From IMG/VR virus record IMGVR_UViG_2703718851_000007: DNA of 10,730 nt; one strand, 5' to 3'. Shown one piece after another: positions 1,199 through 10,730 of this stretch. The notes beneath the pieces are model-generated. The model saw only the letters and a program-made list of their open reading frames with translations. It had not been told where the DNA came from and ran no database searches. Origin of the DNA: a virus (taxonomy: Duplodnaviria > Heunggongvirae > Uroviricota > Caudoviricetes). Within the stretch, counting starts at the first letter, position 1. The number at the start of each line of letters is the position of its first letter. Made by a program: the position numbers and the translations under genes.

Positions 1199-1886
1199 TT
1201 ATCAGCTTAACGTTGCGAAGCTTCAGGCAGCGGCATTTTCTCAACTGTCAGATTCTGACCCGTCAAAATCTGACGCATCAAAATCTGACCCGTCAAAATT
1301 TGATGCGTCGAAATCTGGCAAAAAAGCGGGTTTTCACCCGTCAGAATCTGGCGGGGATCCGTCAGTAAAATCAAAACATGATCCGTCAGATAAAAAAACT
1401 TCTCGTCCGGACGCTTCGCAACCGGACACGCAGACGGCTGAACAGGAGTTTTTAACTCGCCATCCTGATGCGGTTGTATTCAGCCCTAAAAAGCGCCAGT
1501 GGGGAACGCAGGATGATTTGACCTGCGCACAGTGGCTCTGGAAAAAAATCATCGCCCTGTACGAGCATGCCGCCGAATGTGACGGCGAGGTGGTTCGTCC
1601 CAAAGAACCGAACTGGACAGCCTGGGCAAACGAAATTCGCCTGATGTGTGTGCAGGATGGTCGTACTCATAAACAAATCTGCGAGATGTACAGCCGCGTC
1701 AGTCGCGATCCGTTCTGGTGCCGTAACGTGCTCAGCCCGTCGAAGCTGCGGGAAAAATGGGATGAGCTTTCCCTGCGCTTATCGCCGTCCGTCAGCACGT
1801 ACACAGAAAAACGCGAAGACCCGTACTTCAAAGCCAGTTACGACAATGTGGACTACAGCCAGATCCCGGCAGGATTCAGGGGGTGA
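1167..1886 (+). pseudogene. Lambdoid replication-initiator (O-like) gene, 3' fragment carrying internal iterons; no start codon
   Basis: Plus frame is open from 1167 (after TAG 1164-1166) to TGA 1884-1886 with no ATG or GTG; the first TTG is at 1518 (the 122-aa ORF in the track). The frame encodes a pentapeptide-repeat linker (SDPSK-SDASK-SDPSK-FDASK) across the 15-bp iterons, then a C-terminal domain (...CAQWLWKKIIALYEHAAECDGEVVRPKEPNWTAWANEIR...). Iterons inside the initiator gene followed by an A+T-rich stretch is the lambda O/ori layout. Family assignment is by architecture, not a recognised sequence match. Confidence 0.45.
1249..1323. repeat. Five tandem 15-bp direct repeats (iteron-like, putative ori)
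   Basis: Units TCAGATTCTGACCCG / TCAAAATCTGACGCA / TCAAAATCTGACCCG / TCAAAATTTGATGCG / TCGAAATCTGGCAAA at 1249, 1264, 1279, 1294, 1309. Degenerate copies follow at 1341-1355 and 1386-1400, with an A+T-rich tract at 1362-1400. Confidence 0.7.
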
Positions 1887-4928: not shown

Positions 4929-5507
4929 ATGCATCGTATAGACACGAAAACCGCGCAGAAGGATAAGTTCGGCGCGGGTAAGAACGGTTTTACCCGTGGT
5001 AACCCCCAGACTGGCACACCAGCCACCGATCTGGATGATGACTACTTTGACATGTTGCAGGAAGAACTTTGTAGCGTTGTTGAGGCATCCGGTGCCAGTC
5101 TGGAGAAGGCGCGGCACGACCAGTTGCTTACCGCGCTTCGTGCTCTGCTGTTAAGCCGCAAGAATCCGTTTGGTGATATCAAATCGGACGGCACGGTGAA
5201 AAAGGGTATTAACTTTCGCAGCCTGACCGACAGCATAGATACGTCTTCACCAATGGGACGCTTTTTCTTCCATGTCATGGGCGCACTTGCCGAAATGGAA
5301 AGGGAGCTGATAGTCGAACGTACCAGGGCGGGATTGGCTGCGGCTCGTGAAGAAGGGCGAATAGGTGGGCGTCGATCAAAGCTAACTGATGAACAGTGGG
5401 CGCAGGCAGGAAGGTTGGTTGCAGCAGGTGAATCACGACAGCGTGTGGCATTAATTTACGATGTTGGGATATCGACGCTATATAAAAAATTTCCGGCAAC
5501 CAGGTAA
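4929..5507 (+). pseudogene. Fusion of a tail-fibre N-terminal constant region (about 92 aa) to the C-terminal half of a Pin/Gin/Hin-family DNA invertase
   Basis: ATG 4929 with GGAG RBS. Residues 93-192 ([100 protein letters not shown]) are near-identical to the Pin/Gin C-terminal half including the HTH. The invertase N-terminal catalytic domain (active-site Ser about residue 10) is absent. Residues 1-92 ([47 protein letters not shown]...) look like a phage tail-fibre N-terminus. Confidence 0.75.
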
Positions 5508-5595: not shown

Positions 5596-5611
5596 TTAAT
5601 TGACGGTGATT

Positions 5612-6034
5612 ATGATGCAGTTTTTCACTCCCTCCGGGTTGCGTGCAGTGCAGCCGCTTCCACTCTATGGCGATCTTGTACCCTGTGGTTTCCCAAGCCC
5701 TGCTCAGGACTACGTTGAACAGCGTATCGATCTTAACGAGCTACTGATACAACACCCCAGCGCCACGTACTTCGTTAAGGCATCTGGTGACTCGATGATT
5801 GATGCCGGGATCGGCGAAGGCGATTTACTGGTAGTGGACAGTTCACGCAAGGCAGAGCACGGCGATATCGTTATTGCTGCGGTGGACGGGGAATTTACCG
5901 TTAAGCGCCTACAGTTATGGCCAACTGTCCAGCTTAACCCTGAAAACCGCGCCTGGTCGCCTATCATCATCGGGAGCGAAGAAACGCTCGATGTTTTTGG
6001 TGTGGTGACGTTCATCGTGAAATCGACGGGTTGA
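5612..6034 (+). CDS. umuD: UmuD (SOS mutagenesis protein, S24 peptidase-like, DNA polymerase V subunit)
   Basis: Strong similarity to E. coli UmuD over the whole length: cleavage site LVPC-GFPSP, catalytic Ser (KASGDSM) and Lys (EFTVKRLQL) all present. ATG 5612 chosen (MMQFF...); the track starts at TTG 5600. Stop TGA 6032-6034 sits 2 nt before the umuC ATG. Confidence 0.9.
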
Positions 6035-6036
6035 TC

Positions 6037-7305
6037 ATGTACGCGTTGTGTGATGTGAACTCGTTCTATGCCTCCTGTGAAACTGTATTTCGCCCGGATC
6101 TCAAAGGTAGGCCGGTTGTGGTGCTTTCCAACAATGACGGTTGTGTTATTGCCCGCAGCACAGAGGCAAAGAAACTGGGTATCAAAATGGGTGAGCCGTA
6201 CTTCAGGCAGAAGGACTTTTTCCGGCGCCATGGGGTGGTGTGCTTCAGCAGCAACTATGAGCTGTATGCGGATATGTCTAACCGGGTGATGACCACGCTG
6301 GAAGAAATGTCGCCGCGCTGTGAAATTTACTCGATAGACGAGGCATTTTGTGACCTCACTGGTGTACGTAACTGTCGTGATCTGACTGATTTTGGCCGTG
6401 AAATCCGTGCTACTGTTCTGCAGCGAACGCATCTGACAGTGGGTGTTGGCATTGCCCAGACCAAGACGCTGGCCAAGCTGGCCAACCACGCGGCCAAACA
6501 ATGGCAGCGGCAGACGGGCGGGGTGGTAGACCTGTCCAGTGTCGATCGCCAGCGCAAACTGATGGCCGCGCTGCCGGTTGATGAAGTCTGGGGCATCGGT
6601 CGGCGTATTTCGAAAAAACTGGAGGCGATGGGGATCAAGACCGTACTGCAACTCGCTGATACGGACATCCGTTTTATCCGTAAACATTTTAATGTCGTGC
6701 TGGAGCGAACGGTGCGTGAGTTACGCGGAGAACCCTGCCTGGCACTGGAAGAATTCGCGCCAGTGAAACAGGAAATTATCTGTTCCCGCTCTTTTAGCGG
6801 TCGTATCACGGAGTATGAAGAGATGCGCCAGGCGATCTGCAGCTATGCCTCGCGGGCGGCAGAGAAACTGCGTGGCGAGCACCAGTATTGCCGTTTTATC
6901 TCGGCGTTTGTGAAGACCAGCCCGTTCGCACTGAACGAGCCCTATTATGGCAATAATGCCTCCGTGAAGCTTCTGACGCCTACGCAGGACAGTCGGGATA
7001 TCATCAGTGCAGCCATCCGCTGTCTGGACGCCATATGGCAAGACGGATATCGGTATCAGAAAGCCGGGGTGATGTTGGGTGATTTCTTCAGTCAGGGCGT
7101 GGCCCAGCTCAACTTGTTCGATGATAACGCGCCGCGCCCGGGCAGTGAGAAACTGATGGAAGTGCTGGATCACCTCAATGCCAAAGGCGGGAGGGGGACG
7201 CTGTATTTTGCAGGACAGGGTATCCAGCAGCAGTGGCAGATGAAACGGGAAATGCTTTCTCCACGTTACACCACCCGATTCTCTGATCTACCCGTTGTCA
7301 GGTGA
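6037..7305 (+). CDS. umuC: UmuC (Y-family DNA polymerase V catalytic subunit)
   Basis: [22 protein letters not shown]...[11 protein letters not shown]...[29 protein letters not shown]... is near-colinear with E. coli UmuC (MFALCDVNAFYASCE...), with the catalytic Asp/Glu residues conserved. ATG 6037 preferred over TTG 6031. Confidence 0.92.
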
Positions 7306-7383
7306 TTTTCCGGTGACAGATTCTTCGGAAAACGGTGGATGAGTTTATTAGAAACGATAAATCAAATGTTCTTATTTTTGATT

Positions 7384-7420
7384 ACTAAGTCTCAGTTATA
7401 CAATTCGGCTGAGACTTAGT
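7384..7420. repeat. Perfect 12-bp inverted repeat (hairpin) between convergent umuC and the KAP NTPase gene
   Basis: ACTAAGTCTCAG (7384-7395), 13-nt loop, CTGAGACTTAGT (7409-7420). Lies at the GC-content transition; not followed by a clean U-tract on either strand. Confidence 0.5.
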
Positions 7421-7428
7421 ATGCCAAT

Positions 7429-9177
7429 TTATAGGCAAGAAATTGCGTGTCTTACTGTATTGTTTAAATCATATATCGCGCCATATTTAAAACTTTCTTG
7501 CTTACCTATGAAATAAATGTCAAGTTTTTGATTGAGGTATATAAGGCGCTGCTTTTCATTTGTGGCAAACTGAGATATGTTACTAATTCTATAATTACTT
7601 CTTAAAAAAGCGTTGAATTGCTCTATATCTTTAATGCTCCATTCTTTTAAAATGCACTTGGTCAAAAATGGTGCGCCAAGTACTTCTAGCGTTTTATAGT
7701 TTCCCATGGGATCTAATTTGAGTAATAAGTTAACATCAAATAAAGCCCAACCATCAGTTTCAATAATTTCCTTAATTGTCTTTAAGTTTTTTCTCTTTTC
7801 AATATTATTATGACGGCCTGATAATATTGAAAATATAAGTTTCCCATCATCAAAGCCACTAGTCCAACTACTGATTGGATTGTTGTTATGAAATTCAAAG
7901 TAAGTAATAATGTCCTCGTCACTAAATTCGAGTGATTTAGAACTCATGAACTGCAATGTTAGTAATGATGATTTTGGAAGATATTTATGATAAGTCAAAT
8001 ATTCATAGTTCTGAACCGCCCTAAGCCATTGGTGCAAATCACATGGTATTGTTCTAGAAATTAAACCAATAATCGTGGGGAAAAATTCTTTTTCATCTGT
8101 CTCCTGTAGTTCTGGTCGAGTTGAAACTGCAATATCAATTGTACTTAAAGGTGTTGGCACATAAAAAACATCGTCCAATATATCATAAAGAGAAACATGA
8201 CCACTGTAGTAATTTTTAAGGTGAATATTAATTTTATAATTGTGTAATGTAGACAAAAGTCTCGGTTCATGTGGATTTTCATCGCTGCTGGAATTTTGGG
8301 GTGGGATATGCTGGATGCTGTCAATGATCAGTTCGTCCATGGATTTGTTATGGATAAATAACAAGATAAAATATGACAAAATTGAGCTTAGTATGGTTTT
8401 AGAGGCGATTTTCCACTCTAGTTCAGGGTGGTTTTCTGCGTGTAAATATAATGGAAGTGCAGTATTTAAACACCTCATTAAAATTCTTATGTTAACTATG
8501 TTATGGTATGATATTATTTCTTCGAAAATCATTTTGTCTTCAGTGGGGAAGTACTGTAGTTTTTCTTCAATTATTCTCATATCTAATATGTCGCGAGGGT
8601 TTGGGTTGTAATGAAGTGAATCAGAAATAATTTTTTCTTTATGTTCTAATGACAGGTGGGATTCGGCAGATGTATTAGATATAACAATAAAATCCAAACT
8701 AGAGATTTTTGAGGTTGAATATAACGAATGACAATAAGTTAGTATTTCATTGGCCAGTGAGGGAGTGCTTAATCGCTCAATGTCATCTAATATAAATATG
8801 CCACTGAGTTTGGAGAGTATGTTCTCTCTTACACTTGAACCAATGGAACTGAACACACCATTAAGCACATTGGCACTAGCGGGAGAACCACTGCTTACAC
8901 TACCCAAACCAGAAATAGTATCTAACCCAGACTTAAGAGTGTCTATATCTTGAAGATAGTAGCAGTCAATAATCTTTGCTTTGAAATCTGCAAGAGACTT
9001 AACGCCTAGTAATGAAATATAATAAAACACATTAAGATCATAAAAACGAGGAAATACATTTTTAATAAAAAAAGTTTTACCTGTTCCCCATTTTCCATCA
9101 ATAAAAATAAGTCCATCTCTTTCGGATTGTAGAAGATGAACTATTTTTACAATCAAATTGCTATTAGAGTTTTCCAT
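7429..9177 (-). CDS. KAP-family P-loop NTPase (582 aa), AT-rich, horizontally acquired
   Basis: Walker A FIDGKWGTGKTFF at residues about 25-37. Walker B with the KAP-type Asp-Asp...Arg signature GIFILDDIERL about 90 residues later. An internal hydrophobic segment (TILSSILSYFILLFIH) is consistent with the membrane insertions described for KAP NTPases. Codon usage is dominated by AAT/ATT/TTT/AAA; GC is roughly 30% by eye versus about 50% for the flanking umuC. Confidence 0.65.
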   Translation of the reverse strand: MENSNSNLIVKIVHLLQSERDGLIFIDGKWGTGKTFFIKNVFPRFYDLNVFYYISLLGVKSLADFKAKIIDCYYLQDIDTLKSGLDTISGLGSVSSGSPASANVLNGVFSSIGSSVRENILSKLSGIFILDDIERLSTPSLANEILTYCHSLYSTSKISSLDFIVISNTSAESHLSLEHKEKIISDSLHYNPNPRDILDMRIIEEKLQYFPTEDKMIFEEIISYHNIVNIRILMRCLNTALPLYLHAENHPELEWKIASKTILSSILSYFILLFIHNKSMDELIIDSIQHIPPQNSSSDENPHEPRLLSTLHNYKINIHLKNYYSGHVSLYDILDDVFYVPTPLSTIDIAVSTRPELQETDEKEFFPTIIGLISRTIPCDLHQWLRAVQNYEYLTYHKYLPKSSLLTLQFMSSKSLEFSDEDIITYFEFHNNNPISSWTSGFDDGKLIFSILSGRHNNIEKRKNLKTIKEIIETDGWALFDVNLLLKLDPMGNYKTLEVLGAPFLTKCILKEWSIKDIEQFNAFLRSNYRISNISQFATNEKQRLIYLNQKLDIYFIGKQESFKYGAIYDLNNTVRHAISCL

Positions 9178-9254
9178 TATAATTGTTATCCTAATTTAAA
9201 GAGGTGTAAATAAAGCATGAAATAGTATAATGCTAATTTGAGGTAAAAACATTA

Positions 9255-9890
9255 TTATTCAATTGAAACAATAAGATATTCACCTTGATTTTTCGCATTA
9301 CCCATCGCTCGCGTAACTGCATGCCAGATAAACTTGTCAGCTTGCACGGCACCGTAGTCGGTAATCGCTTCTGCTTCCTTGCCTCGGCGTCTTGGCGCAT
9401 CCCATTCCCGGGCTGCCTCCGGTGACAATACAAGTGGCTGTCGGTCGTGTATATCAACCAAGCCTTCATCGGCCGCAGACGTCACTATTAAAAAACCTTC
9501 GGCCTCGTCACTACGTTCGAAGGGGCGCTGCCGATTGCCGCCATGAATATTGGCTACCCATCAGTTCGGTGAATGAAGTAGGGTTGTTTTTTTGCTATCT
9601 TCGGTCTTGTCGAGTAGGGCACCGAAGTTACCTTCAACGCCCCCTCTAAGAACCGTGCGTGAGAGTTTCCAGCTCACACGGCTCAAGCCTTATCAAACAC
9701 CACTGTGAAATGATGCGGCAGGTGCAGTCAGACGCGTGGTCCGGGATCGGATATAATCTGTCCAATCCGTGTCATATGGATTAAGTGCAGATGCGACGAG
9801 TCTGTGACGGACAATTTTGACGCTCTGAGCGTGAACCAGCCTCAGTATTGTAACTTTCCCCGTATCAGTGTCCCGATAAAGACCTGACAC
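9255..9890 (-). pseudogene. SRAP/YedK-like (DUF159, abasic-site processing protein) pseudogene, 5'-truncated with nonsense and frameshift lesions
   Basis: C-terminal ORF (9255-9485) reads ...AADEGLVDIHDRQPLVLSPEAAREW...GKEAEAI...FIWHAVTRAMGNAKNQGEYL, matching the YedK C-terminus (AADQGLVDIHDRRPLVLSPEAAREW...SWHPVSRAVGNVKNQGAEL). Upstream, a different frame gives KKQPYFIHRTDG-stop-PIFMAAIGS (YedK KKQPFFIYRADGQPIFMAAIGS: a Q codon is replaced by TAG), then a frameshift. Further upstream fragments (HLHL, GKVTIL) sit in two other frames. The N-terminal MCGR catalytic-Cys region is not present. Confidence 0.65.
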
Positions 9891-9896
9891 CCCATT

Positions 9897-10730
9897 TTAC
9901 TGCTGCCACCAAGCATATAGATCTAGACCTTTGGTAATTACACCTAAGAAAATCCCTAAAACTATTAATCCAGTCACTAATGGGTGTTCTTTGAGCCTCA
10001 TCGTTAACCAATATGGATGCCAGCTTCTTGGCCAAAACCATTTATTGTTAGTTTTGAGAGTACGATCATGAATCCGCTCAGCAATATTACAGAGTATGTC
10101 GACCTTTCGTAATGTAGACATTTCTAGCTCTCTATACTTACCTTTGACATATGCCTCGGCTTCCTCAGCGCCGGCTAAGACATCTTTATCAGCGATACCA
10201 TTTTTTTCAACAAGAGCTAACATTCTACCTGCACGGCCACTTTTGGCGGTATGCCCAATATAGCTTCGTCCATATATAGAAACGGCAGCTCTCGCTAAAT
10301 CGAGTTTTCTGTCATCAGTAAGTATAAAGGGCTCGCCACCTAGGACTGAAAATCTATGCTGTAAGGCCTGAAATCCGTAATTGTTATCTCGCATGTTCCA
10401 ATGCAGAAATGTGCATTGTGCGTATCTTTTCAGGAATGTAAAGTAGTTATCTAATAGATGATGCTCAAGGATATCGAGATTTTTTTCATCTGAAACATCA
10501 AGACCTAATAATTCTGCGGATCTATTAAGAGCCCAATGATCTGTTTGCCCACTGCCTAAATTTCTGACAGCAATAGAGGTGATCCTTGTGGATTTACCGC
10601 CCACAGCATCATAAAAAGATTCACATGAATAATGGACAACGTAGCATTGATGCGCATTTGCAAAACATTTTTCGATAAAACCAATGTACTCGCTGCGATC
10701 TCTAATCTGTTGTTTGATGGAAGATGACAT
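9897..10730 (-). CDS. Hypothetical protein (277 aa) with a C-terminal transmembrane helix; function unknown
   Basis: ATG is the last 3 nt of the window (10730-10728), so the true start cannot be confirmed; stop TAA at 9899-9897. C-terminus ...EHPLVTGLIVLGIFLGVITKGLDLYAWWQQ contains a roughly 19-residue hydrophobic helix. GC is lower than the host-like segments (about 40% by eye). No recognisable catalytic motif by eye. Confidence 0.5.
   Translation of the reverse strand: MSSSIKQQIRDRSEYIGFIEKCFANAHQCYVVHYSCESFYDAVGGKSTRITSIAVRNLGSGQTDHWALNRSAELLGLDVSDEKNLDILEHHLLDNYFTFLKRYAQCTFLHWNMRDNNYGFQALQHRFSVLGGEPFILTDDRKLDLARAAVSIYGRSYIGHTAKSGRAGRMLALVEKNGIADKDVLAGAEEAEAYVKGKYRELEMSTLRKVDILCNIAERIHDRTLKTNNKWFWPRSWHPYWLTMRLKEHPLVTGLIVLGIFLGVITKGLDLYAWWQQ

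What the first reader, a model, noticed from the sequence alone, without database searches (positions are those of the whole stretch)
9255..9890. SRAP/YedK-like gene inactivated by truncation, a Gln-to-stop change and frameshifts, sandwiched between two low-GC cargo genes
The remnant retains long stretches of clear YedK similarity but is spread over three frames with an in-frame TAG (KKQPYFIHRTDG-stop-PIFMAAIGS), and its 5' end (catalytic Cys2 region) is missing where the 277-aa gene ends. This looks like the original occupant of the site, disrupted by insertions on both sides. It also links a second DNA-damage-tolerance gene to the umuDC locus.
Basis: seen in the sequence. Interest (0 to 1): 0.4.

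Follow-up and report, generated by a model that had tools for sequence, protein, structure and literature searches.

The report
Relic of intron-invaded SRAP repair gene
The region holds the dead back half of a YedK-type (SRAP) DNA-repair gene joined to the tail of a self-splicing group II intron that had inserted into it, and the same intron family sits at exactly this codon of SRAP genes in many other bacteria.

Summary
The SRAP pseudogene is real, but it covers only 9255-9608 (minus strand), codons Lys107 to the stop. It carries an in-frame TAG (9554-9556), an extra A in an A7 run (9587-9593), a 1-nt deletion (~9522-9526) and a compensated +1/-1 pair (~9404/~9390). The same lesions occur in at least 10 independent assemblies, so they are not sequencing errors.

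The other 288 nt of the finding (9609-9896) are not SRAP. They are the 3' end of a group II intron: the last 64 codons of its reverse transcriptase/maturase, then domains V and VI (Rfam RF00029, 53.6 bits). The SRAP remnant starts at the first base after the intron's 3' splice site.

Full-length copies of this intron interrupt SRAP genes at the same point, after Glu105-Trp106 (YedK numbering). They occur on a Pantoea plasmid, in a provirus whose umuC product is 90% identical to the window's, and in about 30 genomes, mostly Acidobacteriota. Many have both exons intact.

So this is a decayed, non-functional relic of an intron-bearing SRAP gene that lay convergent with umuDC at a prophage end. 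A deletion or replacement removed exon 1 and about 87% of the intron. A 1.95-kb low-GC gene (KAP NTPase) sits between umuC and the SRAP 3' end. I found no paper describing the SRAP-specific intron lineage.

The parts
9255..9608 (-). SRAP (YedK-family) 3' exon remnant: codons equivalent to Lys107 through the stop (TAA 9255-9257). It keeps the His160 motif (DIHDRQP) and lacks Cys2, Asn75 and Glu105.
   Evidence: Pfam SRAP match; tblastn and nucleotide alignments to D9, PHB10 and L067; YedK residue numbering; PGAP pseudogene annotation.
9587..9593 (-). A7 homopolymer with one extra A (+1 frameshift) relative to intact relatives, which read AAAAAAC or AAGAAGC here.
   Evidence: Alignments; coordinates.
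9554..9556 (-). In-frame TAG replacing the CAG codon of Gln124.
9522..9526 (-). 1-nt deletion (-1 frameshift) at about codon 135. It returns the reading to the frame used at 9588-9608.
9390..9404 (-). Compensated +1/-1 indel pair that recodes EWMRQDIGG as EWDAPRRRG.
9609..9896 (-). 3'-terminal ~288 nt (about 13%) of a group II intron whose full-length relatives are 2,159-2,169 nt. The 5' break lies 0-3 nt from the TAA (9897-9899) of the 277-aa gene.
   Evidence: 96% identical to the intron stump on plasmid pSB89A_IMI-2 and 83-84% identical to full introns on K. variicola and Pantoea plasmids.
9609..9686 (-). Intron domains V and VI, ending ...CCCUACUCGAC at the 3' splice site (9609).
   Evidence: Rfam RF00029, 53.6 bits (gathering score 40), E 1.7e-8, full model 1-77. 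The 3' end is conserved in all relatives, and sequences diverge immediately after it.
9693..9887 (-). Last 64 codons plus the stop of the intron-encoded reverse transcriptase/maturase (residues 434-497 of 497).
   Evidence: tblastn with the K. variicola plasmid LtrA: 78% identity, E 1e-28. That LtrA matches TIGR04416 at 365 bits and has RVT_N, RVT_1 and GIIM domains.
7306..9254 (.). 1.95-kb low-GC (0.32) segment between the umuC stop and the SRAP stop. It carries a 582-aa KAP-type P-loop NTPase gene (7429-9177, minus strand).
   Evidence: Homology to the D9 umuC/SRAP pair stops at 7303 and resumes at 9283. Pfam KAP_NTPase. PADLOC candidate defence family PDC-S49, E 7.8e-14. GC.
9897..10730 (-). 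277-aa gene of unknown function (phrog_8766). Its stop codon directly abuts the intron stump.
   Evidence: The identical protein is indexed in 707 blocks of the assembly collection, and all 8 places shown have the same neighbouring genes.
5600..7305 (+). umuD-umuC, the partner of the ancestral convergent umuDC -> <- SRAP cargo module.

Best explanation
The locus is a non-functional relic of an SRAP (YedK-type abasic-site crosslinking) gene that had been invaded by a mobile group II intron.

Ancestral state (inferred from relatives): at the end of the prophage, umuD-umuC ran into a convergent SRAP gene. A ~2.17-kb group II intron without an endonuclease domain sat between the Trp106 and Lys107 codons, directly after the catalytic Glu105 codon. 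Splicing would restore the reading frame.

Later events (order unknown):
- A deletion or illegitimate replacement removed exon 1 and the 5' ~1.9 kb of the intron. This left the 277-aa gene abutting an intron stump (the reverse transcriptase tail plus domains V and VI).
- A 1.95-kb low-GC KAP NTPase gene came to lie between umuC and the SRAP 3' end.
- Exon 2 picked up a nonsense codon and frameshifts.

The intron belongs to a lineage that homes specifically into SRAP genes. The likely mechanism is pairing of an invariant domain I loop, CCAUUCUC, with the exon sequence GA(A/G)UGG, which encodes Glu-Trp.

Shown: the anatomy, the lesions, the shared insertion site and the intact relatives. Inferred: the order of events, the deletion mechanism and the EBS1-IBS1 pairing.
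For: The SRAP remnant and its lesions are documented. The intron stump consists of RF00029 at 9609-9686 and the reverse transcriptase C-terminus at 9696-9887, E 1e-28.

The exon begins in phase 0 at the first base after the conserved intron end CTACTCGAC.

Full-length relatives have GUGCG 5' ends, Rfam group-II-D1D4-7 at 98-105 bits, RF00029, and a TIGR04416 reverse transcriptase. They split SRAP genes at the same codon boundary on the Pantoea stewartii and K. variicola plasmids and in proviruses L067/L068. In those two proviruses the spliced product is an intact 225-aa SRAP. L067 additionally shows umuD and a complete umuC (product 90% identical to the window's) convergent with it.

Census with the domain V 42-mer: 48 genomic loci. 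Of 36 phase-0 downstream ORFs, 31 hit Pfam SRAP. Of 20 full-length copies, 18 have an upstream exon ending ..[FWY][YFI]EW. At least 10 have both exons open.

The CCAUUCUC loop is invariant in all 22 aligned introns and its stem covaries.

The 719-bp segment is identical apart from 1-3 SNPs in 9 other assemblies.
Against: - No un-deleted version of this exact SRAP allele was found. The best intact relatives are 76-80% identical in nucleotide sequence, so the ancestral state at this very locus is inferred from homologous modules, not observed.
- The order of events is unknown, and the relic could have arrived already decayed as part of a larger module.
- No target-site duplications or other junction signatures were found that would define how the KAP segment or the 277-aa gene arrived.
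- The EBS-IBS pairing rests on complementarity only. EBS2 was not resolved.
- Splicing has not been demonstrated for any copy.
Confidence: 0.88

Rival explanations
1. One reading: one SRAP gene remnant spans 9255-9890 in three reading frames, and its 5' end was cut directly by insertion of the 277-aa gene.
For: The 3' part (9255-9608) is SRAP with a stop and frameshifts. The 277-aa gene ends at 9897.
Against: There is no SRAP similarity upstream of 9608 in any frame. The stretch 9609-9896 matches group II intron domains V/VI and a reverse transcriptase C-terminus, and it is 96% identical to an intron stump on a plasmid.
Confidence: 0.03
2. The stop and frameshifts are sequencing or assembly errors, and the gene piece is really open.
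For: One lesion lies in a homopolymer (the A7 run), a typical error site.
Against: The 719-bp segment has the same lesions in 9 further independent assemblies, including three complete genomes; they differ from the window by only 1-3 SNPs, none at a lesion site. Even if the lesions were repaired, the N-terminal 106 codons, with Cys2 and Glu105, are absent.
Confidence: 0.01
3. The intron stump arose from abortive retrohoming (incomplete reverse transcription giving a 5'-truncated insertion), not from a later deletion.
For: 5'-truncated copies recur: the window, pSB89A, the Robbsia plasmid, and L010, L017, L022 and L053.
Against: Abortive insertion should leave SRAP exon 1 next to the stump. Here, and in the other truncated copies examined, no exon 1 is detected upstream and unrelated genes abut the stump. 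The census was anchored on domain V, so only fragments that keep the 3' end could be seen. The apparent 5' bias is therefore an ascertainment effect.
Confidence: 0.07
4. The remnant is retained because it still does something. For example, it might serve as a spacer or RNA element between the co-oriented 277-aa and KAP NTPase genes, or encode a truncated SRAP C-terminal peptide.
For: The segment is nearly invariant across many assemblies. It lies between two co-oriented genes, and a weak promoter-like site lies at 9210-9182.
Against: The near-identity extends to the whole module and fits recent common descent. No ORF covers the SRAP part. Cys2 and Glu105, essential for SRAP chemistry, are missing. 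Promoter and terminator scans are not above the shuffled expectation. In one strain an IS3 element sits inside domain V.
Confidence: 0.03

Closest known systems
E. coli YedK / human HMCES (SRAP domain, Pfam PF02586; PDB 6KCQ, 6NUA)
   Same: The remnant is homologous to residues 107-222 of YedK-type SRAPs. It shows 79-87% amino-acid identity to prophage SRAPs that are colinear with YedK, and it keeps the His160 motif.
   Different: It lacks the N-terminal 106 residues, including Cys2, Asn75 and Glu105, which are needed for thiazolidine crosslinking to abasic sites (PMC9436759). It also carries a stop codon and frameshifts. It is a pseudogene, not a working family member.
Bacterial mobile group II introns (Rfam RF00029 and group-II-D1D4-7 RF02012; reverse transcriptase/maturase TIGR04416), e.g. 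Ll.LtrB in a conjugative relaxase gene, and E.c.I1-I9, which home into IS and Rhs elements
   Same: Full-length relatives have a GUGCG 5' end, domains I-IV, domains V/VI with the conserved ...CUACUCGAC 3' end, and an RT-X protein encoded in domain IV. Like Ll.LtrB (my own knowledge), they sit in the sense strand of a protein gene carried by mobile elements.
   Different: The home site is a conserved catalytic motif (Glu105-Trp106) of a DNA-repair gene, and it is shared across phyla. [quoted passage not shown] In the window only the last ~13% of the intron survives.
Homing group I introns and inteins that occupy conserved active-site motifs of host genes (general principle; my own knowledge)
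   Same: The insertion falls exactly in the most constrained codons of the host gene, so the target cannot easily mutate away. The site is shared among very divergent hosts.
   Different: Recognition here would be by RNA-DNA base pairing of a retroelement, not by a homing endonuclease. This was not tested experimentally.
SOS-associated SRAP-umuDC gene neighbourhoods on prophages and plasmids (the origin of the name 'SOS response-associated peptidase', Aravind and co-workers 2013; my own knowledge)
   Same: SRAP lies adjacent to umuDC in D9, UTAK-5, PHB10, pSB89A and L067.
   Different: In the window the SRAP partner is dead and separated from umuC by an inserted KAP NTPase gene.

Membership tests
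SRAP / YedK family (PF02586) | Significant match to the SRAP profile | tested here: met
   63.6 bits against a cut-off of 27.1, E 2.4e-17, covering profile positions 114-213 of 214 only. tblastn E 2e-44.
SRAP / YedK family (PF02586) | N-terminal Cys2 nucleophile, plus Asn75 and Glu105 | tested here: not met
   Homology starts at the Lys107 codon (9608). No SRAP similarity exists upstream of it. Residue roles are from PMC9436759.
SRAP / YedK family (PF02586) | His160 motif | tested here: met
   DIHDRQP aligns to DIHDRRP, which contains His160.
SRAP / YedK family (PF02586) | Uninterrupted open reading frame (functional member) | tested here: not met
   TAG at 9554-9556, +1 at 9587-9593, -1 at ~9522-9526. 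The same lesions occur in at least 10 assemblies.
Group II intron | Domain V catalytic hairpin and domain VI with the branch-site region, ending at the 3' splice site | tested here: met
   RF00029 full-length match at 9609-9686, 53.6 bits (gathering score 40). The conserved 3' end CTACTCGAC is aligned with four relatives.
Group II intron | Intron-encoded reverse transcriptase/maturase | tested here: inconclusive
   Only the last 64 of 497 residues are present in the window (78% identity, E 1e-28). They lie outside the RT and X domains, so the fragment has no Pfam hit. The full protein in relatives matches TIGR04416 and RVT_1/GIIM.
Group II intron | 5' GUGYG end and domains I-IV | tested here: not met
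   Absent from the window, where the intron is broken at ~9896. Present in full-length relatives: GTGCGAC ends and RF02012 at 98-105 bits. The window therefore holds a fragment, not a functional intron.
SRAP-homing intron lineage (proposed here) | Insertion in the sense strand of an SRAP gene between the Trp106 and Lys107 codons (YedK numbering), phase 0 | tested here: met
   In the window, the exon starts at 9608 in phase 0 with KTEDSKK(Q)PYF. The same junction occurs in 18 of 20 full-length copies, and 31 of 36 downstream ORFs are SRAP.
SRAP-homing intron lineage (proposed here) | Target recognition by EBS1-IBS1 pairing (CCAUUC with GARUGG), and splicing that restores SRAP | not testable with these tools
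   Only complementarity, an invariant loop with a covarying stem and intact spliced ORFs are available.

The most novel reading that the evidence does not exclude
A previously undescribed lineage of endonuclease-less bacterial group II introns homes specifically into SRAP/YedK genes, at the codons of the catalytic Glu105-Trp106 motif. An invariant domain I loop, CCAUUC(UC), can pair with every synonymous spelling of Glu-Trp (GAA/GAG + UGG, through G.U wobble). That would explain its presence from Acidobacteriota to enterobacterial plasmids and prophages, often in SRAP genes whose two exons remain intact and so presumably depend on splicing for expression. The window preserves a decayed footprint of this association next to umuDC.
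Probability: 0.55. Interest if true: 0.6.

Novelty: new variant of a known kind. Interest (0 to 1): 0.45.

Why it matters
For the window itself the result is corrective. The pseudogene is already annotated and is dead. Its odd 5' boundary is explained by an unannotated group II intron stump, not by SRAP sequence in other frames.

The wider point is that bacterial group II introns are thought to avoid conserved protein-coding genes. Here a coherent lineage sits in one conserved DNA-damage-tolerance gene, at its catalytic motif, across phyla, with many host genes still intact. If this holds up, it offers three things:
- a natural system for studying splicing-dependent expression of a repair gene;
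- a worked example of how RNA-guided homing can exploit codons with little or no synonymous freedom (Glu has two, Trp has one);
- a rule for annotators, since split SRAP genes are currently called as fragments or pseudogenes.

The comparison also shows that the slot between umuC and SRAP at prophage ends exchanges cargo: a KAP NTPase here, an unrelated 319-aa ORF in L067.

Tried and rejected
- Word-index homology search with the 67-aa reverse transcriptase tail found no candidates. BLAST against plasmids gave the lead instead.
- No closer intact allele of this SRAP turned up. E. coli complete genomes and plasmids give at best 76-78% nucleotide identity. Only 3 of 5,426 E. coli genomes carry the module, all with the same architecture.
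- The search for target-site duplications or repeats flanking the KAP segment or the stump returned only short matches that look like chance.
- The promoter and terminator scan of 9100-10000 was not above the shuffled expectation.
- EBS2 and delta assignment from the domain I alignment was not resolved. Only the candidate EBS1 loop is clear.
- I considered whether the 277-aa gene and the genes upstream of the other intron stumps (331 aa in pSB89A, 281 aa in Robbsia) are homologous, which would indicate a shared truncation event. There is no similarity and no Pfam hit.
- I considered whether 5' truncation is a mechanistic bias. I rejected this as an ascertainment effect of the domain V-anchored search.
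- Six literature searches pairing 'group II intron' with SOS response-associated peptidase, yedK, DUF159, COG2135, SRAP/HMCES, or Acidobacteria homing site found no paper linking the two.

Full report
**1. Context.**
The window is the ssrA-proximal end of a prophage with Mu-like baseplate and tail genes. The same module is present in three complete E. coli genomes: SZQ1, CP55_Sichuan and Res13-Sevr-PER07-33.

The gene order is: invertase (4929-5507, +), umuD (5600-6034, +), umuC (6031-7305, +), a 582-aa KAP-type P-loop NTPase (7429-9177, -), the region under study (9255-9896, -), and a 277-aa gene (9897-10730, -). The tmRNA gene lies just outside the window.

**2. Checking the observation.**
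The SRAP similarity is real and far beyond chance. A stitched minus-strand translation hits Pfam SRAP at 63.6 bits, E 2.4e-17. tblastn with intact prophage SRAPs gives 79% identity over residues 135-219 (E 2e-44) and 87% over residues 113-135, with the quoted TAG in place of Gln124. PGAP already annotates 9255-9592 as a frameshifted, internally stopped, N-terminally incomplete SRAP pseudogene.

Nucleotide alignments against three independent intact references (E. coli D9 prophage, phage PHB10, provirus L067) give one consistent lesion map:
- an extra A in the A7 run 9587-9593;
- CAG to TAG at 9554-9556;
- a 1-nt deletion near 9522-9526;
- a compensated +1/-1 pair near 9404 and 9390, which recodes EWMRQDIGG as EWDAPRRRG.

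With the extra A removed, the exon reads KTEDSKKQPYF. This is colinear with KKEGDTKQPYF of the reference, so homology starts at 9608, the Lys107 codon. Upstream of 9608 no frame shows SRAP similarity.

**3. What the upstream 288 nt are.**
Rfam finds a complete group II intron domain V/VI (RF00029) at 9609-9686 on the minus strand: 53.6 bits against a gathering score of 40, E 1.7e-8. The 65-codon ORF just upstream (9693-9890) is the C-terminus of an intron reverse transcriptase/maturase. Residues 434-497 of the 497-aa LtrA of a Klebsiella variicola plasmid align to 9887-9696 at 78% identity, E 1e-28. That LtrA matches TIGR04416 at 365 bits and has RVT_N, RVT_1 and GIIM domains and no endonuclease domain.

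Intron homology runs to about 9894-9896, which is 0-3 nt from the TAA of the 277-aa gene. The intron's 3' end...CCCTACTCGAC, is at 9609. It is conserved in all relatives, and sequences diverge immediately after it. The SRAP exon therefore begins at the first nucleotide after a 3' splice site, in phase 0.

**4. [quoted passage not shown]
- On Pantoea stewartii plasmid pCN102, a full intron splits an SRAP gene into residues 1-105 and 106-221. The intron is 2,159 nt, with a GUGCG 5' end, Rfam group-II-D1D4-7 at 98.5 bits, and RF00029.
- On K. variicola pBM374-1, a full intron is flanked by SRAP residues 63-106 and 107-141.
- On pSB89A_IMI-2, an intron stump 96% identical to the window's is followed by SRAP residues 107-222 and then umuDC.
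- On a Robbsia andropogonis plasmid, domains V/VI are followed by an SRAP C-terminal half.
- Two IMG/VR proviruses (L067, L068) carry a 2,169-nt intron whose reverse transcriptase is 99.6% identical to the K. variicola one. It sits inside an SRAP whose spliced product is an intact 225-aa protein, MCGRF...FEW|KREGDKKQPYF.... In L067 this SRAP is convergent with umuD-umuC, whose UmuC is 90% identical to the window's. An unrelated 319-aa ORF occupies the slot where the window has the KAP NTPase.

L067 is the best available picture of what the window looked like before decay.

**5. Census.**
An exact-match scan of one genome per species with the 42-nt domain V motif returned 48 loci. Most are Acidobacteriota; there are also Halomonas, Janthinobacterium, Erwinia, Nitrospira, Rhodomicrobium and others.
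- I translated the sequence immediately after the intron end in phase 0. Of the 36 ORFs of at least 40 aa, 31 match Pfam SRAP, best E 1.3e-34. Several of the rest are visibly decayed SRAP.
- Of 20 full-length copies with resolvable 5' junctions, 18 follow an exon ending ...[FWY][YFI]-E-W.
- The two copies outside SRAP follow ...GAATGG and ...GGGTGG, which are look-alikes of the normal target.
- At least ten copies have both exons open, giving complete SRAPs of about 221-239 aa on precise splicing.

The census is anchored on domain V and on exact matches. It is therefore a lower bound, and it cannot see fragments that keep only the 5' end.

**6. The target.**
The D9 SRAP aligns colinearly, position for position over residues 1-222, with E. 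coli YedK (PDB 6KCQ). Cys2, Asn75, Glu105 and His160 form the active site, and Glu105 is the most important residue after Cys2 (PMC9436759). The intron therefore sits directly after the Glu105-Trp106 codons.

All 22 aligned full-length introns share an invariant domain I hairpin loop, CCAUUCUC, whose stem covaries (GCGGAUG/CAUCCGC, ACGGGUG/CACCCGU, ACGGAAG/CUUCCGU). CCAUUC is complementary to GAAUGG. With G.U pairs it also pairs with GAGUGG and with the ectopic GGGUGG. I infer that this loop is EBS1 and that it reads the Glu-Trp codons, whose synonymous freedom is minimal. This is an inference from complementarity. EBS2 was not resolved.

**7. The surroundings.**
An intact SRAP lies convergent with umuC, overlapping it by 8 bp, at a prophage end in E. 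coli D9. The two genes are adjacent in UTAK-5 and close together in phage PHB10.

In the window, homology to the D9 pair breaks at 7303 and resumes at 9283. The intervening 1.95 kb has a GC content of 0.32, against 0.54 for umuDC and 0.50 for the SRAP remnant. It encodes a KAP NTPase that matches the PADLOC candidate defence family PDC-S49 (E 7.8e-14) and phrog_4740. The 277-aa gene (GC 0.40) matches only phrog_8766, of unknown function. No junction repeats were found.

**8. Not an artefact.**
The 719-bp stretch 9178-9896 is identical, apart from 1-3 SNPs, in nine other assemblies from different projects, and all lesions are retained. The identical 277-aa protein is indexed in 707 blocks of the assembly collection, and all 8 places shown have the same neighbouring genes. 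In Res13-Sevr an IS3-family element has additionally inserted inside domain V, at about window position 9657.

**9. Most likely history and mechanism.**
- Shown: the anatomy, the lesions, the shared insertion site and the existence of intact intron-bearing relatives next to a closely related umuDC.
- Inferred: a umuDC -> <- SRAP cargo module at the prophage end acquired the intron by retrohoming into the EW site. While the intron was intact, splicing could restore SRAP. A deletion or illegitimate replacement then removed exon 1 and about 1.9 kb of the intron, placing the 277-aa gene against the stump. The KAP NTPase gene entered the umuC/SRAP slot. Exon 2, now without its start codon or its catalytic half, accumulated a nonsense codon and frameshifts.

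The order of these steps is unknown, as is whether they happened in this prophage or before the module was acquired. The relic has no plausible SRAP activity, because Cys2, Asn75 and Glu105 are gone.

**10. Comparison with what is known, and novelty.**
The pseudogene itself is already annotated. The intron stump is not annotated in the RefSeq records examined.

[quoted passage not shown] Six full-text searches found no paper linking group II introns with SRAP, YedK, DUF159, COG2135 or HMCES, or describing such a homing site in Acidobacteria. The specialised group II intron database could not be consulted, so prior listing of these introns cannot be excluded.

I therefore rate the locus as an ordinary relic whose explanation reveals a new variant of a known kind: a group II intron lineage specific to the catalytic motif of SRAP genes.

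Noticed in passing
window 7306-9254 (gene 7429-9177, minus strand); L067 6692-7651: The slot between convergent umuC and SRAP holds different cargo in related elements. The window has a low-GC 582-aa KAP-type NTPase matching PADLOC candidate defence family PDC-S49 (E 7.8e-14) and phrog_4740. L067 has an unrelated 319-aa ORF with no Pfam hit. In E. coli D9 the slot is empty and the two genes overlap. This looks like a cargo-exchange hotspot at the prophage end.
   Followed up: partly
window 9897-10730 (minus strand): The 277-aa protein has no Pfam, NCBIfam or PADLOC hit but matches phrog_8766 (unknown function, E 2e-54). Its C-terminus is hydrophobic (GLIVLGIFLGVI). It is co-oriented with the KAP NTPase gene. 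The identical protein is indexed in 707 blocks of the assembly collection.
   Followed up: partly
L002 about 12459-13700 (E. coli Res13-Sevr-PER07-33), equivalent to window ~9657: In one of the three complete genomes an IS3-family element has inserted inside domain V of the intron stump. This is further decay of the relic.
   Followed up: no
L020, L033, L048, L050, L054 (Acidobacteriota MAGs): Five otherwise full-length intron copies begin TCGCGAC or TTGCGAC instead of GTGCGAC. The 5' splice-site G1 is mutated, yet both SRAP exons are still open in L020, L033 and L054. They may be splicing-defective copies caught early in decay, or they may use a non-canonical 5' end.
   Followed up: no
L028 and L038: Two full-length copies lie outside SRAP genes, after ...TTTTGAATGG and ...CTACGGGTGG. 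This fits ectopic retrotransposition into look-alikes of the GARTGG target.
   Followed up: partly
Acidobacteriota MAGs CAWGND01 (L012, L036, L044), CAVUUK01 (L011, L040), CAWBDA01 (L034, L048), CAWFIV01 (L014, L052), and others: Single genomes carry two or three loci with this intron, most next to SRAP sequence. This suggests that several SRAP paralogues per genome have been colonised.
   Followed up: no
L059 (ENA metagenome contig k141_170364): The same 277-aa/stump/SRAP-pseudogene/KAP/umuCD module lies next to a phage integrase and a cI-like repressor instead of ssrA. This would be expected if the two prophage ends were joined (excised or circular form), or if the element were integrated elsewhere.
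   Followed up: no
window 1254-1317: A 15-bp unit (TCTGACCCGTCAAAA) is repeated 4.3 times in tandem beside the tyrosine-recombinase-like ORF at 545-1186. It produced a spurious sub-threshold Rfam mir-5880 hit. It could be a set of protein-binding repeats.
   Followed up: no
window 9741: The window has G on the minus strand at 9741, where nine other assemblies have A. This is the only difference in the 719-bp segment for most of them.
   Followed up: yes
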